Shown here in pieces: positions 15,001 to 21,000 of a stretch of DNA of 64,000 nucleotides; the stretch's first letter is position 1, and every line of letters begins with the position of its first letter. Origin of the DNA: Syntrophales bacterium (GTDB taxonomy: Bacteria > Desulfobacterota > Syntrophia > Syntrophales > UBA6807); NCBI GenBank assembly GCA_040767195.1, contig JAXGPA010000006.1, forward strand, positions 1 through 64,000. The letters run 5' to 3'. Position numbers: made by a program.

Positions 15001-18000
15001 GCACGAGGTAAGAATTCTTCCCGGTGAAGGGGCTTTCCACCATGACGCCCCGGTTCACCAGTTCCATGTCCGCTCCGCCGTGGTCCCGGACGGGGATGAA
15101 CTCGAGACCCATGGCGGCGGCCTTGAACCGGGCGGACATCCCGTAGTTGGTGTAATCGTCCAGGCGGATCATGCCCTTGGCGTTGAGATGCCGGAGCAGG
15201 GGCGCGATCCCGATCACTTCATAGCCCCACCACGCCAGCTCCACCCGCTTGATGGTGATCTGTTCCGGGTAAAGAAGCATGGCCCCCGCCAGGAGTTCCG
15301 GGCAGATGGAACTGGACTGGAAACACAGGGTGAGATCCTTCGCGCCCTGGCGGATGATCTCATGGATCGTGGCTACAGGCGGGCGGGTGTTGACAAACCC
15401 GCCGATACCGATGCTAAGGCCTTCTCTCCCGTGGATATACTTTTGAACGGCTTCCTTGAGGGTCATTCGCTTGTCGACCATGCCCTTGGGCTTGTTGACC
15501 ATGATCTTCCGGGCTTCTTCCGGAGTGGGTCCCCAAAACTCAAAGGGCTCTTCAGCGTACTTTTTCACCAGGGCTTCATCGAGGCTGGTGATTTTCTTGA
15601 TAGACGATCCTTCTTTTCTCTTGATCATTCCTGACCTCCAATAATTTCCTTTCCCTCAGGACGGAAAAACGGCCCTCGCGGCCCGCCCCCCCGGGGGAAG
15701 TCATTGCTGACCCTCCTTTTCCCGGTTGGCGTCTATACAGGAAAGTTCCCTTCCCGTCAAGAAATGAAAGAGGTTTCCTATTGACAACATCTTTTTCCCT
15801 GTGGTACGTCGTGAAGCGGAAAAACCGCTTGGATCCCCTCCAGGGACTGAGACGGGAACCGTGCCTGAAGAAACCTTTTCCGCGCTTCCCCCAAAAAGCG
15901 CGTCCCTTCCGGTATCCCCCCGCCCCGAGCCCCTACGTTGTCCGAGCTGAAAGGAACACGGGGGAACATCGTGCCAGAAGAAAAAGACACCATCGCCATC
16001 ATCGGCCTGGGCCGGGTCGGCACCGCCATGGGGATTCTTCTCCAGGCCGCGGGCTATCCCGTCACCGCCGTCTCCAGTCGTTCCGCCCCGCCCGCCGGCG
16101 CGGGCGTGGAACCGACAGGCGCCCTTTTCCATGAGAACCCCGCCGACGCGGCGGCGCAGGCCCGATGCGTTCTCATCACGACAAGCGACGACGCCATCGC
16201 GCCCGTTTGCGAACGAATCGCCCGGTCGGGGGCGGTGGGTCCGGGAAAAAAGGTCGTCCACATGAGCGGCGCCGGGGGGCTCGACCTTCTTGCCACCGCG
16301 TCCCGAAAGGGCGCTTTCGTGGCATGCATCCACCCCATACAGGCCTTTGCGAACGCGAAGAGCGCCCTTTCTTCCATCCCGGGAAGCACGTTCGGCATCA
16401 CCGCCGACGAGGCCATCCGGGACTGGGCCGTCGGGCTTGTCCGGGACATCGGCGGTGTTCCATTCTTCGTTCCCGGGAACCGCAAGGCCCTCTACCACGC
16501 CGCGGCCTGCATCGCCTCCAACTACCTCGTCACGCTCCTATACGTGGTCTCGAAAATCGGCGAAGCCTTCGGCCTCGCTGAGCGGGAAACCCTTGACGCC
16601 TACGGGCCTCTCGTCCGGGGAACGATCCGGAATATCGAGGAGCACGGCACCATTTCGGCCCTGACGGGTCCCATCGCCCGGGGTGACGGGGGAACGGTGG
16701 CGCGCCATTTCGAAGCTTTCGAGGAATCCCTTCCCCGGTACCTCGACGCCTACCGGGCACTGGGGGAGATCACCGTGGACATGGCCGTGGAAAAAAAGAC
16801 CGTGGCCCCGGAAAAAGCCGAAACCATACGATCCATATTGAAGGGAGGAAAACAGTCATGAGTCAGGAAGTCAAATTGAACCCCGTGACGACGTTCACCG
16901 TCCGGGAGATGAAGCGCAAGGGCGAGAAGATCACCATGCTCACGGCCTACGATTTTTCCACGGCCTCCATCGTGGACCAGGCCGGGGTGGACATGATTCT
17001 CGTCGGAGATTCCCTGGGAATGTGCATCCTCGGCTACGACAGCACCCTTCCCGTCACCATGGACGACATGATCCGCCACACCCAGGCCGTCGTCCGGGGC
17101 GTTAAACGGGCCATGGTCGTCGCCGACATGCCCTTCATGTCCTACCAGGCCTCCATCGATGAGGCCATCCACAACGCCGGCAGGCTCATGAAGGAGGGGA
17201 ACGCCCACGCCGTCAAGCTCGAGGGGGGACGGGATGTGGCCGAGGTTGTCCGGCGGACCGTCTCCGCCGGGATCCCCGTCGTCGGGCACCTGGGGCTCAC
17301 GCCCCAGTCGGTGCACCAGCTCGGCGGCTACAGGGTCCAGGGAAAGGGCGACACGGCAGCCCGGCGCCTCCTGGAGGACGCGAAGATCCTCGAGGAGGCG
17401 GGCGCCTTCAGCATCGTTCTCGAGTGTGTCCCCGAGGGACTGGGTGAGGAGGTTTCAAAGGCCCTGGCGATCCCGACCATCGGCATCGGCGGGGGCGTCC
17501 ACTGCGACGGCCAGGTCCTGGTGGTAAACGACATGCTCGGCATGTTCGAAAAATTCACCCCCAAGTTCGTCAAGAAGTACGCGAATCTGAACGTGAACAT
17601 GAAGGAGGCGGTGGGCCGGTACGTCGAGGAAGTCCGCCAGGGGGTGTTCCCGGGAAAGGAACACTCCTTTCTGTAAGAGGATCGGGGGCCTCCCCTCCGG
17701 TGAAAGGTCCGCCAGGGGGAGGCCCGGCCGTTGTTACCGGCGCCTTTCCTCAGGCCTCCGTCAGCGTTCCGTCGGCCAGCCTGGCCAGGGCGTCCCGGAC
17801 CTTGCCGCCGGCGCCGAGAAAAATCCGGACACCCGCCTCCTTGAGCACGCGGGCGGACTGCCGTCCGATGTGGCCGGTTAGGACGGCGTTCACCTTTTTG
17901 CCGGCTACGATATTCCCGGTAGCCGTTCCCCGGACGGTTCACTGCATGGATCGTCCCTCGTTCGGAACGGCCTCGAAGGACAGCGTTTCAGGATCGACGA

Positions 18001-21000
18001 CCACGTAGTAGCTGCAGCGGCCGAACCGGGGGTCGACCAGGTCATCCAGTTCCGGTCCCGTGGACGATACGGCGATTTTCATCGGTTTTACTCCTCGATC
18101 CGGCCGCGCTGGGCCGTTAGTCTTTTAAGGAAGCCATGCCCCGGCCGTCGTCCCGCCCGTCCGGGCGGGCGCCGGACTCCTGTCGTTACCACGAAAAAAG
18201 GGCGGCCGCAAGACGGTCCTTGTCATCAAGGATGTTTGTTCTTTTCCGCTGTTTGTGCTAAATTCCTTGACATGACTGCCCCTGGCGACTATTTACTGGT
18301 GATTCGGAATACCGCTCGAGAAAGAAGCTGAAACAGCATGACAACGGCAGGCCCTCTCAAACCCCTCACGGATATGAAAACCGATGAAACAGGAACCATC
18401 GTCGACATTCTGGGCGGTGAGGGCGTGACCAAGCGCCTGGCGGCCATCGGCGTCATCCCCGGAAAAACCGTGAAAAAGATCAGCTCCATTTCGGCACGGG
18501 GCCCGGTTACGATCAAGATAGACCGTGCCCAGCTCGCCCTGGGATACGGCATGGCCAGCAAGGTCCTGGTGAAAGCGGCCGGGTGAACCCATGAAGATTC
18601 TCCTCATGGGTAACCCGAACGTCGGAAAGAGCGTGCTTTTCTCCCGTCTCACCGGTGTCAGGGTCATCTCGTCCAACTACCCCGGGACCACCGTCGGCTT
18701 CACCCGGGGATTCCTCAGGGTCCGCGGGGAAAAAGCCGAGATCATCGATGTCCCCGGGTCCTACACCCTCGATCCGTCCTCGGAGGCGGAGCGGGTCGCC
18801 GCCGAGATGGTGAACACGGGGGACGTGATCATCAACGTGGTCAACGCCACGAACCTGGAAAGAAACCTCTACCTCACCCTGCAGCTCCTGGAACGGGACA
18901 TTCCCATGGTCGTCGCTCTCAACATGTGGGACGACACCCGGCACAGGGGCATCGATATCGACCTGAACCGCCTCGAGGCCCTCCTGGGGGTCCCCGTGGT
19001 GCCCACGGCGGCCATTGCGGGGCAGGGCGTCCGGGAACTCGTGGACACCCTTCCCCAGGCCCGGCGGGTCGCCAACCCGCCCCAGAGCCGGGACGAACGG
19101 TGGGTCCGGGTCGGACAGATCATCGACCAGGTCCAGCAGATCTCCCACAAGCACCATCGCTGGTTCGAGCGTCTCGAGGACGCCAGCGTCAAGCCCCTGT
19201 CGGGTTTTTTCATCGCCGCCGCCGTCCTGTCCTTGTCCTTCCTGGTAATTCGATACCTCGGGGAGTCAATCATCGGTTACGGCATGGACCCTCTTTTCGA
19301 GGGCCTGTGGCTTCCCGTTCTCGACCGCTTGAGCGCTTTTCTCGGGGGCGGCGGGATTCTGCACGACGTTCTCATCGGGAAAAAGATCGACGGCGCCATC
19401 GATTTCGTCCAGTCCTTCGGCCTGCTTTCGAGCGGCCTCTACGTCCCCTTCGCCATGGTCCTGCCATACATCGTCTCGTTCTACCTCGTCCTGGGAATTC
19501 TCGAGGATTCGGGCTATCTCCCCCGGCTCGCCGTCCTCATGGACACGGCCATGCACCGGATCGGCCTCCACGGGTTCGCCATCATCCCCACCCTTCTCGG
19601 CCTGGGCTGCAACGTTCCCGCCATCATGGCCACGCGAATCCTTGAAAGCCGGAGAGAGCGGTTCATCGCCGCCACCCTCGTGGCCATCGCCATCCCCTGC
19701 GCCTCTCTCCAGGCCATGATCGTGGGCCTCGTCGGGGGAAAAGGGTGGGTGTACCTGGCAGTCGTCTACGGAACCCTTTTCCTGGTCTGGGTGCTCCTGG
19801 GCGCCATCCTGAACCGGGTCCTGTCGGGTTTGAGCCCGGAGCTTCTCATCGAGATCCCCCCCTACCGGCTACCGCCGTGGCACCTTCTTTTCCAGAAACT
19901 GTGGATGCGGATCTGGGGCTTTCTTCTCGAGGCCGTTCCAATCGTTCTCGCGGCGGTCCTCGTGGTCAACCTTCTTTACCTGACCCATGTCTTCAGCCTT
20001 CTTGCCGATCTCGTGGCCCCCGTCGTCACGGGCGTCCTCGGCCTTCCCCGGGAGGCCATCACGGCTATCGTCGTCGGGTTTCTCCGGAAGGACGTGGCCA
20101 TGGGCATGCTCGCCCTTCTCGACCTGGGCGCGCGGCAGCTGGTCGTGGGAAGCGTCGTGCTGGCCATGTCCTTTCCGTGCATCGCCACTTTCGTGGTTCT
20201 CCTTCGGGAACTGGGCCTCCGCGACCTCATCAAATCCACGGCCATCATGCTTTTTTCCGCCGTTGCCGTGGGCGGGCTCCTGAATGCCATCCTGTCTCAA
20301 CTGGGAATACACTGAAAACGAGGGGGCTTCTTCCATGCCGTCCCTGGAAAATGAAGAAAAGGTTTCCGAGATGTCCCTCCGGACCGCCACGGCCCTGGAC
20401 ATCCTGAAGGACGGCGCCGGGAACTTTCTCGTCAACGGCGACATGAACATGGCCGCGGCCATCGCTTTCTACTTCATCCTTTCCATCGTCCCGCTTCTCA
20501 TGCTCACCATTTTCGTCGCCGGTTTCTTCTTCGGGTCGAACCCCCGCTTCATTGACGATCTCGTCGGCATGATCCAGAAATTCCACCCCTACTTTTCCGG
20601 GGACATCCTCCGGTACCTGGACGAAATCCAGAAAAACATGAAGGTCCTGGGGTCCGTGGGCATCATCCTGCTCACCTGGTCGTCCTCCCTCATCTTCGAC
20701 TCCGCCCAGACGGCCATGAACGTCATCTTCCGCTCCGACAAGCCCCGGAACTTCCTGGTGTCCAAGCTCATCGCCATCGCCATGATCCCCGTGGGCTGGG
20801 TCATGATGCTCCTCATCATCGGAATCACCTACCTGGGGGCCATGATGGAAAGGAACCCCTTCTTCCTGGAAACCCTGAACCTCCCCCTGCTCAACGTGGT
20901 TTTCGGGGTGCTTCTGCCCTTCCTCATCACCATGGTCTTTTTCGCCATCGTCTACAAGGTCATCCCCACGGTAAAGATCTCCTGGGGAAACGCCTTTTCC

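What a model noticed while it worked through the whole genome (the two positions that open the first line are those of the whole stretch)
17750..18082. A selenocysteine-containing NifX/Orp-like (PF02579) small protein: a selenoprotein family not in current inventories
The 47-aa call g01957 is the front of a 110-aa protein (C10:17750-18082, minus strand) read through one in-frame UGA (U48). It is a NifB/NifX/NafY-type Fe-Mo-cluster-binding-domain protein (Pfam Nitro_FeMo-Co) of a distinct subclade in which the usual loop [SGA]GGAGI is replaced by U-[ITV]-[TV]-R-G-T-A-[TA]-G-N. I propose that it is a genuine selenoprotein, next to feoAB, of a family absent from the 2026 list of 119 prokaryotic selenoprotein families.
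Evidence so far: Orthologues at 53-58% identity in three other Syntrophales genomes of two other families (G426, G420, G403) each carry one TGA at the same aligned column, with the protein conserved on both sides. A hairpin GGCUAC-N9-GUAGCC starts 16 nt after the UGA in all four, kept through G-U/U-A changes. The best database homologue (P0157, 110 aa, 53%) has Cys at that column in the same motif (HCVTRGTATGN); of the 120 listed homologues 1 has C, 52 S, 36 G, 23 A, 8 other or gap. selA (g01280), selB (g00384) and 14 other UGA-read genes are present. No NCBIfam (seleno)protein model hits it. Review PMC13188914: Table 1 read in part 1 of section 7 and its end; PF02579, NifX, dinitrogenase, FeMo occur 0 times [...]
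(Added by a program. Inside this text positions count along the whole contig: contig position 1 is position 1 of the stretch shown here. "Call 12" and the like, gene names such as g00115 and contig names such as C1 are that model's own, and its searches are not shown. The text may have been shortened before it was handed on; [...] marks where a part breaks off. The agent that wrote the report below was given it as the finding of a first reader that could run no searches.)

Follow-up and report, generated by a model that had tools for sequence, protein, structure and literature searches.

The report
Uncatalogued orange-protein-like selenoprotein of Syntrophales
A small gene in syntrophic anaerobes that databases cut in half at a UGA 'stop' very probably makes a full selenocysteine-containing protein of the orange-protein/NifX metal-cluster fold, a selenoprotein type missing from the current catalogue and of untested function.

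Summary
Confirmed and strengthened. Window 18082-17750 (minus) is a 110-codon PF02579 gene with one in-frame TGA at codon 48. The TGA form occurs in 36 of 339 Syntrophales genomes (5 of 24 families) and was not found outside the order. It never varies to TAA/TAG in 29 aligned genes, and both halves are under equal purifying selection. A 7-bp hairpin 14-37 nt downstream is 100% paired, suppresses synonymous change and is broken in the one Cys gene whose DNA I had. Nine Cys clusters fall in three lineages nested among TGA forms, while outgroups carry Ser/Gly/Ala, so Sec looks ancestral. selC and selD are missing from this assembly, but so are thrC, tRNA-Ser and tRNA-Asn: probably a gap. The family is absent from the 119-family table and NCBIfam. 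Corrections: feoAB is a neighbour in only 5 of 32 loci; panB in 25; a MoaE-NifU pair sits directly upstream in 6. The closest structure is Desulfovibrio orange protein (TM 0.94), with Sec48 beside its His53. Best guess: a stand-alone metal-sulfur cluster binder using Sec48 and Cys23; function untested. Two relatives also carry a Cys-type opal tRNA. This scan noted the same family earlier in another genome (e1-3107584).

The parts
17750..18082 (-). 110-aa ORP/NifX-fold (PF02579) gene read through one UGA; includes terminal TGA 17752-17750
17939..17941 (-). In-frame TGA, codon 48, predicted selenocysteine
   Evidence: TGA in 29 of 30 fetched orthologues, TGC in the other; Cys in 9 of 120 listed homologues
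17902..17925 (-). SECIS-type hairpin CGGCUAC-CGGGAAUAUC-GUAGCCG, nt 14-37 after the UGA, overlapping codons 53-61
18091..18096 (-). Shine-Dalgarno-like GAGGAG, 8 nt before the ATG
   Evidence: sequence; purine-rich tracts precede most orthologues
18014..18016 (-). Cys23 codon (DPRFGRC), invariant in the clade; candidate second thiol ligand
   Evidence: 29 of 29; 15 of 15 Cys forms
17870..17872 (-). His71 codon (TGHIG); candidate third ligand, not invariant
   Evidence: 25 of 29
16858..17676 (+). panB, convergent neighbour that marks the conserved chromosomal position (context, no functional link claimed)
   Evidence: within 5 kb in 25 of 32 loci
18338..20315 (+). feoA (18338-18586) and feoB (18591-20315), divergent neighbours in this family only (context)
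   Evidence: 5 of 32 genome loci, 7 of 63 metagenome loci

Best explanation
The gene encodes a 110-aa selenoprotein. SelB bound to the hairpin 14-37 nt downstream delivers Sec-tRNA to UGA48 (inferred from sequence, about 0.92 likely for the family). The protein keeps the orange-protein fold. Sec48 sits at the start of helix 1, aligned with Ser52 next to His53 of D. gigas ORP. By topology it lies on the same edge of the sheet as Cys23, His71 and the basic residues Arg19, Arg51 and Arg74/Lys75. Most likely job (inferred, about 0.55 given a selenoprotein): a small carrier or store for an anionic metal-sulfur unit (an Fe-S cluster or a thiomolybdate/thiotungstate-Cu type species), held by the cationic pocket as in ORP but anchored by a selenolate, with Cys23 as second ligand. 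It would receive cargo from a NifU-like scaffold and works apart from the orp operon. Because full-length product needs Sec insertion, its level would follow selenium supply.
For: Shown: TGA at one column in 29 of 30 loci, never TAA/TAG, while the same genes end in TGA 20, TAA 6, TAG 3. pN/pS 0.36 before and 0.39 after the UGA, no stops in between. Hairpin paired in 196 of 196 cells with 3 two-sided changes. Third-position entropy 0.35 bits inside versus 1.44 outside. Only 4 of 7 pairs remain in the Cys gene. 9 Cys clusters in 3 lineages. selD in 29 of 36 carrier genomes; tRNA-Sec at 73 bits or more in 7 of 10 tested. Model pLDDT 92.7; TM 0.94, Z 20.6, rmsd 1.0 A to 2WFB. Established: every characterised PF02579 protein I read about binds a metal-sulfur species (ORP Mo-Cu-S and MrpORP [3Fe-4S], PMC6345978; IssA thioferrate, PMC5524996; NafY and NifX cofactors through one His, PMC8496260, PMC13128457). 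Context: MoaE-like and NifU-like genes lie directly upstream on the same strand in 6 of 32 loci, 3 with an ATGA stop-start overlap.
Against: No selC or selD in this assembly. No protein evidence. Only 16 of 29 hairpins meet all four published bSECIS constraints in their minimum-energy fold, and the consensus loop is 10 nt against a 3-9 limit. An opal-reading Cys-type tRNA with a second SelB occurs in G320 and G204, so UGA48 may also be read as Cys. The NifU/MoaE context holds in one family only; 26 of 32 loci lack it. ORP's His53 and the NifX/NafY His ligand are both absent. His71 varies in 4 of 29. Distances between Sec48, Cys23 and His71 were not measured. The gene persists in genomes with no other PF02579 gene and no MrpORP (G212, G219, G221), so a role inside the ORP complex is unlikely.
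Confidence: 0.52

Rival explanations
1. A true selenoprotein, but a redox or sulfur/selenium-relay protein: Cys23 and Sec48 form a reversible selenenyl-sulfide or carry a persulfide/perselenide, for example towards molybdopterin or Fe-S synthesis, with no bound metal cluster.
For: Exactly one invariant Cys plus Sec. The nearest outgroup often has Cys23 plus Cys72 (Cys72 in 66 of 120 listed homologues), whereas all 29 Sec members have Ile72, as if a thiol pair had been rebuilt. MoaE-like and NifU/SufU-like neighbours are sulfur-handling proteins. Most selenoproteins are thought to be redox proteins (PMC13188914 section 7).
Against: No CxxU-type motif or thioredoxin fold; the fold's known members bind metal-sulfur species; no reductase among recurring neighbours.
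Confidence: 0.24
2. A selenoprotein that binds a single soft metal ion such as Cu(I), Fe(II) or Hg(II) with Sec48, Cys23 and His71, as chaperone or buffer.
For: Sec/Cys/His donor set; ORP's cluster contains Cu (PMC6345978); feoAB is adjacent in this family.
Against: feoAB adjacent in only 5 of 32 loci and on the other strand; no metal exporter among recurring neighbours; His71 not invariant; several conserved Arg favour an anion.
Confidence: 0.12
3. UGA48 is recoded mainly as cysteine by a selC*-type tRNA-Cys(UCA) with its own SelB paralogue, so the product is a Cys protein.
For: G320 (same genus) and G204 carry a 92-nt UCA tRNA with A1:U72 and U73 directly upstream of a second selB, matching selC* as described in PMC5389517; this assembly lacks selD.
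Against: Both genomes also have a canonical tRNA-Sec (76-78 bits); this assembly has neither the second selB nor that tRNA; SelD and FdhA-type genes in the order use UGA at known Sec sites. Better read as a back-up than as a replacement.
Confidence: 0.06
4. UGA48 is a real stop: a pseudogene, a split gene, a sequencing error or a code-4 (Trp) reading.
For: 8 of 8 N-terminal 46-47-aa fragments are recorded as proteins in databases; 3 of 120 listed homologues show Trp at 48; selC and selD missing here.
Against: Same codon and column in 36 genomes of 5 families; equal selection on both halves; the stop would split one compact domain; independent runs confirm the base calls; TGA is the normal terminal stop of 20 of 29 of these genes; one Trp record equals locus L154 with TGA read as W.
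Confidence: 0.04

Closest known systems
Orange protein (ORP, Orp8) of Desulfovibrio gigas, PDB 2WFB
   Same: Single PF02579 domain, 36% identity, TM 0.94, Z 20.6, rmsd 1.0 A over 109 residues; shared DPRFGR and TG-x-x-G motifs.
   Different: ORP's S-H53-G-A-G-I-N loop is U-T-V-R-G-T-A here; ORP has Ala where this has Cys23 and binds its Mo-Cu-S cluster non-covalently (PMC6345978); ORP is in orp operons, this gene is not, and this genome has a separate orp-like operon at C1:294488-301564.
NifX / NafY cofactor chaperones (PDB 9IAN chain F, 1P90)
   Same: Same fold (Z 11.1 and 12.9); small carriers that hold a cluster by one protein ligand in a positive pocket (PMC13128457, PMC8496260).
   Different: 17% identity; the ligand His of His-Phe-Gly is Arg19 here (approximate mapping from the aligned ranges); no nif genes among recurring neighbours.
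MrpORP C-terminal Di-Nase domain and IssA of Pyrococcus furiosus
   Same: PF02579/IPR003731 domains that bind Fe-S species; all 30 aligned members give weak NF041136 hits.
   Different: No P-loop ATPase, no CxHFGHCE/CDH motifs, no Gly/Arg-rich tail; 24 bits against a cut-off of 450.
Predicted bacterial selenoprotein families (119 in PMC13188914 Table 1), e.g. HesB-like, (2Fe-2S)-binding CopZ-like, metal-binding NF041115, nitrogenase alpha RxU
   Same: In-frame UGA, downstream hairpin in the coding region, Cys orthologues, anaerobic Desulfobacterota host.
   Different: No PF02579 entry; no UxxC/CxxU motif; the Cys forms look derived and the outgroup has no Cys at the site, against the usual Cys-to-Sec trend (PMC1794560).

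Membership tests
Bacterial selenoprotein (UGA + bSECIS) | In-frame UGA conserved at one column in orthologues | tested here: met
   29 of 30 fetched loci; 36 of 339 genomes by union
Bacterial selenoprotein (UGA + bSECIS) | Cys at the aligned position in homologues | tested here: met
   9 of 120 listed clusters, plus TGC in G047
Bacterial selenoprotein (UGA + bSECIS) | Coding conservation on both sides of the UGA | tested here: met
   mean identity 63% before, 65% after; pN/pS 0.36 and 0.39
Bacterial selenoprotein (UGA + bSECIS) | bSECIS model (loop 3-9 nt, stem 4-16 bp, G in first two loop positions, 16-37 nt spacing, MFE <= -7.5) in this gene | tested here: met
   MFE fold: loop GAAUA, 23 nt from UGA, 9 bp, -11.7 kcal/mol (model from PMC13188914 section 5)
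Bacterial selenoprotein (UGA + bSECIS) | Same strict bSECIS model across the family | tested here: inconclusive
   16 of 29 pass on the MFE fold; consensus loop is 10 nt with invariant GG at positions 2-3
Bacterial selenoprotein (UGA + bSECIS) | selA, selB, selC, selD in the same genome | tested here: inconclusive
   selA, selB found; selC, selD not found (11, 12, 62), but thrC and the LysR gene next to selD in relatives, and all tRNA-Ser and tRNA-Asn, are missing too (10, 95, 96)
Bacterial selenoprotein (UGA + bSECIS) | Sec machinery in other carriers | tested here: met
   selD in 29 of 36 carriers; G320 and G314 have all four genes
Bacterial selenoprotein (UGA + bSECIS) | Selenium in the expressed protein | not testable with these tools
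   needs 75Se labelling or MS
PF02579 / IPR003731 (Nitro_FeMo-Co) | Pfam score over gathering threshold and RNase H-like fold | tested here: met
   66.3 bits vs 26.3; top 10 structural matches are all family members
Orange protein proper (Orp8) | His53-Gly-Ala-Gly-Ile loop | tested here: not met
   replaced by U-[ITV]-x-R-[GE]-T
Orange protein proper (Orp8) | Encoded in an orp operon with MinD-ferredoxins and MrpORP | tested here: not met
   no such genes among recurring neighbours; 3 carriers lack MrpORP altogether
Orange protein proper (Orp8) | Binds S2MoS2CuS2MoS2 | not testable with these tools
   biochemistry needed
NifX / NafY | His-Phe-Gly cofactor ligand | tested here: not met
   Arg-Phe-Gly in 29 of 29; ligand role from PMC8496260, PMC13128457
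Catalogued prokaryotic selenoprotein families | Listed in PMC13188914 Table 1 or hit by an NCBIfam (seleno)protein model | tested here: not met
   whole table read, no PF02579 row; 0 of 30 members reach any NCBIfam cut-off

The most novel reading that the evidence does not exclude
This is the first selenocysteine-anchored metallocluster carrier. Sec arose de novo at a Ser/Gly position of a cluster-binding loop, with no Cys precursor; the new SECIS rewrote helix 1 (GGAGIQAAQ to xxRGTATGN); the gene left the orp operon and later reverted to Cys three times. It would give syntrophs a selenium-gated route for handling Mo/W- or Fe-sulfur units, and a natural covalent-ligand variant with which to attack the open question of what ORP-family proteins do.
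Probability: 0.33. Interest if true: 0.78.

Novelty: new variant of a known kind. Interest (0 to 1): 0.6.

Why it matters
It adds a fold, the ORP/NifX metal-sulfur carriers, to the bacterial selenoproteome and corrects genes that databases hold as 46-47-aa fragments (8 of 8 checked). New selenoprotein families appear regularly, so that alone is modest. Two things lift it. First, Sec appears ancestral at a site where outgroups have Ser/Gly/Ala, with three reversions to Cys, opposite to the published trend. Second, ORP-family function is unresolved, and a member with a selenolate in the loop beside His53, plus natural Cys variants that express under the standard code, makes ligand and cargo directly testable (Se K-edge EXAFS, 77Se NMR).

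Tried and rejected
Homodimer with a 4Fe-4S cluster riding along, on natural Cys orthologues: no verdict (score 0.29, mark 0.42); not evidence either way. A genome-wide screen for other UGA-read genes by dicodon score gave 649 candidates, mostly shadow frames, and was dropped. ARAGORN at a relaxed threshold called a 73-nt 'tRNA-SeC' at C1:675192; too short and unsupported by Rfam or by BLAST with G320 selC. Rfam found no SECIS family over the hairpin. The window's hairpin alone is only mildly more stable than shuffles (z -1.93 for 36 nt, +1.06 for 63 nt), so single-sequence folding was not used as evidence. No sigma-54 site upstream in 0 of 30 loci, but the scan also found none before the orp-like operon, so it is uninformative; no sigma-70 hit. 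Two RNA libraries hold contigs over the gene, but contigs cannot show strand, level or transcription. The metagenome pattern contained the TGA by design, so its 63 hits (56 distinct) show range, not codon conservation. The feoAB link was rejected (5 of 32). The TGA in G237 is at codon 18 of an ordinary paralogue and was left out of all counts. In G317 the contig ends about 300 nt past the LysR start with no selD piece, which is inconclusive. Atlas search returned only PF02579 clusters. Haft and Tolstoy 2025 could not be read; its families were seen only through Table 1 of the review and NCBIfam.
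Full report
Observation. The minus strand from 18082 to 17750 reads as 110 residues with one in-frame TGA at codon 48 (17941-17939) and GAGGAG 8 nt before the ATG. 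Pfam PF02579 matches residues 13-102 at 66.3 bits, spanning the TGA. Contigs of two DNA runs from two different studies cover the TGA with no difference (records 21 and 29). The neighbours are panB, convergent, and feoAB, divergent.

Conservation of the UGA. A protein search of all 339 genomes of the order matched 271; of the 36 best rows 34 carry one TGA, one is a Cys orthologue (G047) and one an ordinary paralogue (150 rows listed, 348 not). In the 30 loci fetched, 29 have TGA and one TGC at the same column; the other clade rows I fetched agree. A DNA pattern found 35 copies in 34 genomes, against 1 hit for the reversed control. The union is 36 genomes and 37 copies, in 5 of 24 families (f1 6/10, f17 18/22, f21 7/10, f24 4/18, f13 1/9); G331 rests on the pattern alone. 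Kin are not independent, but the site is never TAA or TAG whereas the same 29 genes end in TGA 20, TAA 6, TAG 3. Mean identity is 63% before and 65% after the codon; pN/pS is 0.36 before and 0.39 after, with no stop between. Outside the order, none of 102 other matching genomes in a 401-genome phylum sample has a TGA, and the 31 TGA loci among the best 80 of 386 GTDB relatives are all titled Syntrophales, Syntrophaceae, Syntrophus or delta-proteobacteria (these overlap the G-handle set). It was not found elsewhere with these queries.

The hairpin. CGGCUAC pairs with GUAGCCG at nt 14-20 and 31-37 after the UGA, around a 10-nt loop with invariant GG. All 196 cells pair in 28 distinct sequences, with 3 two-sided and 6 one-sided changes; slid registers pair 7-59%. 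RNAalifold gives the same structure. Five of seven pairs never vary, so covariation is thin. The stronger sign is synonymous freezing: third-position entropy at four-fold codons is 0.35 bits inside (6 codons) and 1.44 outside (23 codons), and 0.53 versus 1.48 in 11 lineage representatives; pS falls from about 0.68 to 0.22. The G047 Cys gene keeps only 4 of 7 pairs. The window's fold meets all four bSECIS constraints of PMC13188914 (section 5 read); 16 of 29 do on their minimum-energy fold.

Cys forms and direction. The profile search listed 120 of 658 hits; 12 carry the clade motif, 9 with Cys and 3 with Trp at 48; the other 108 have mostly Ser 44, Gly 29, Ala 17, Met 11 and no Cys at 45-51. 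Among 191 non-clade domains from the representative library only 2 have a Cys in that window. One Trp record is locus L154 with TGA read as W; the other two could not be traced. Sec, Cys and Trp forms make one clade against 22 outgroup rows (100/100), also with columns 42-61 removed (100/99, 45 rows). The Cys rows need three changes and are rejected as one clade (AU p 2.5e-10, tested after seeing the first tree). They nest among TGA rows, so parsimony favours one gain of Sec and three reversions. The earliest branches are weakly supported once the loop is dropped (87/73, 94/92), and an unsampled Cys ancestor is not excluded. PMC1794560 (passages) reports Cys-to-Sec as the general trend and Sec-to-Cys mostly in FdhA and SelD.

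Machinery. selA and selB are intact here. Four of nine molybdopterin oxidoreductase matches have a TGA in an FdhA-type HxARxUH motif with a hairpin behind it; both MvhD matches have no stop. selC and selD are not found. A gap is likelier than loss: ARAGORN finds 39 tRNAs with no Ser or Asn, and thrC and a LysR gene, which flank selD in G314 and G320, are in 9 of 9 and 8 of 9 other family genomes but not here. In G315, G316 and G319 that block runs off a contig on the selD side; G317 is unclear. selD is in 306 of 339 genomes of the order and 29 of 36 carriers; tRNA-Sec scores 73 bits or more in 7 of 10 carriers tested. G320 and G204 also have a second UCA tRNA with A1:U72 and U73, directly upstream of a selB paralogue (for G204 seen). 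That matches the selC* tRNA-Cys of PMC5389517 (passages), which can put Cys at opal codons. It is not in this assembly and sits beside a canonical selC, so I read it as a back-up that could give a Sec/Cys mixture.

Context. In 32 genome loci of the clade, panB is within 5 kb in 25, a YihY/BrkB gene in 19, MoaE-like and NifU-like genes in 6 each, feoAB in 5, an FKBP gene in 3; in 63 shorter metagenome loci the counts are 54, 43, 5, 6, 7 and 0 (names from representatives). The gene has kept its place next to panB while the upstream side changed. In family f21 the order is MoaE-like, NifU-like, this gene, on one strand, with ATGA overlaps in 3 of 6. That NifU-like protein's best match in this genome (43-48%) lies in a separate orp-like operon with three PF02579 genes, two MinD-ferredoxins, a radical SAM gene and MrpORP. 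Yet in G212, G219 and G221 (98-100% complete) the TGA gene is the only PF02579 match and MrpORP is not found. So it descends from orp-like genes but is kept without them.

Structure and mechanism. The model (pLDDT 92.7, Cys for Sec) matches D. gigas ORP best: TM 0.94, Z 20.6, rmsd 1.0 A. In the profile alignment U48 falls on Ser52, next to His53 (His53 is named as an NMR-sensitive residue in PMC7701195, passages; that Asp21, His53-Ala55 and Asn58 line the cluster site is my recall). The invariant residues (T8, G9, D17-F20, C23, N41, U48, R51, T69, G70, G73, G90-G93) all fall in loops at one edge of the sheet, by topology, not measured. Known members bind anionic metal-sulfur species: ORP non-covalently and MrpORP a [3Fe-4S] (PMC6345978, passages), IssA thioferrate (PMC5524996, passages), NafY through His121 with NMR broadening over a helical lobe 149-162 that maps roughly to residues 44-60 here (PMC8496260, first half of the text; offsets), NifX through His35 in a positive pocket (PMC13128457, passages). 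I therefore favour a carrier or store in which Sec48, helped by Cys23, supplies a covalent anchor. The redox reading is the main rival: outgroups often pair Cys23 with Cys72 (66 of 120), which the Sec clade replaces by Ile. Residues 53-60 are constrained by the RNA, and change in the Cys lineage that lost it (RGTAT to RDTTT), so they say little about function. Shown: gene, codon, hairpin, orthology, fold. Inferred: Sec insertion. Hypothesis: cargo and partner.

Novelty. Table 1 of PMC13188914 (section 7 parts 1 and 2, all rows) has no PF02579 family. None of 30 members reaches an NCBIfam June 2026 cut-off. Term searches for NifX, NifB, nitrogenase or PF02579 gave nothing relevant in PMC13326102 (text; its one supplement is a genome list, cut when stored), PMC12013277 (text and 4 supplements) and PMC9312934. 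Library searches pairing selenocysteine terms with NifX, dinitrogenase iron-molybdenum, COG1433, PF02579 or orange protein listed no paper on it (listings only). Haft and Tolstoy 2025, the BSepDB site and subscription journals were not seen. Databases hold the N-terminal fragment as a protein in 8 of 8 cases checked.

Verdict. A real, well-supported, uncatalogued selenoprotein family of narrow range: a new variant of two known kinds. Interest 0.6.

Noticed in passing
L220:219-310 and 412-2295 (G320:C15); L221:216-307 and 382- (G204:C430): A 92-nt UCA-anticodon tRNA with A1:U72 and U73 directly upstream of a full-length second selB (638 aa in G320): a selC*/selB* pair like that of PMC5389517, here in Syntrophales, and in G320 with no cysS* seen in the 500 nt behind selB*.
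   Followed up: partly
G000:C1:294488-301564 (L215): Complete orp-like operon: three PF02579 genes, two MinD-ferredoxin ATPases, a radical SAM gene, MrpORP (533.8 bits, over cut-off), a NifU-like gene and a CCG-domain Fe-S protein.
   Followed up: partly
G000 whole assembly: Rated 98.8% complete yet lacks all tRNA-Ser and tRNA-Asn, thrC, selD and selC; 2.39 Mb against about 3.3 Mb for its congener G320.
   Followed up: yes
G000:C8:136712-137983, C8:151743-153014, C8:156469-157896, C1:466799-468436: Four FdhA-type molybdopterin oxidoreductase genes with in-frame TGA and downstream hairpins; both MvhD/FlpD matches have no stop.
   Followed up: partly
L042, L047, L049, L050, L054, L074, upstream of the match: MoaE-like and NifU_N-like genes in tandem (possibly fused in L050, across an N run) in family f21; the NifU-like protein keeps three Cys.
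   Followed up: partly
window 21885-25748, minus strand: KamA-family radical SAM gene, two D-Ala-D-Ala-ligase-like ATP-grasp genes and a GNAT acetyltransferase in a row; none reaches an equivalog cut-off, product unknown.
   Followed up: no
window 17628-17745: GC-rich hairpins between the convergent panB and this gene, with a perfect 13-nt direct repeat (17632 and 17707) and a 10-bp inverted repeat; a related approximately 100-nt repeat is scattered over the genome.
   Followed up: no
L074 / L219 (G266:C3:48341-48643): This orthologue seems frameshifted near codons 9-11; may be a long-read error.
   Followed up: no
G336:C150 and C170: Two copies of the TGA gene in one genome; the C150 copy matches only from residue 41-46 onward.
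   Followed up: partly
protein clusters: Clusters 1 and 6 of the protein collection group the 46-47-aa fragments with unrelated 277-709-aa proteins (P0284, P0286, P0288, P0321): a clustering artefact.
   Followed up: yes
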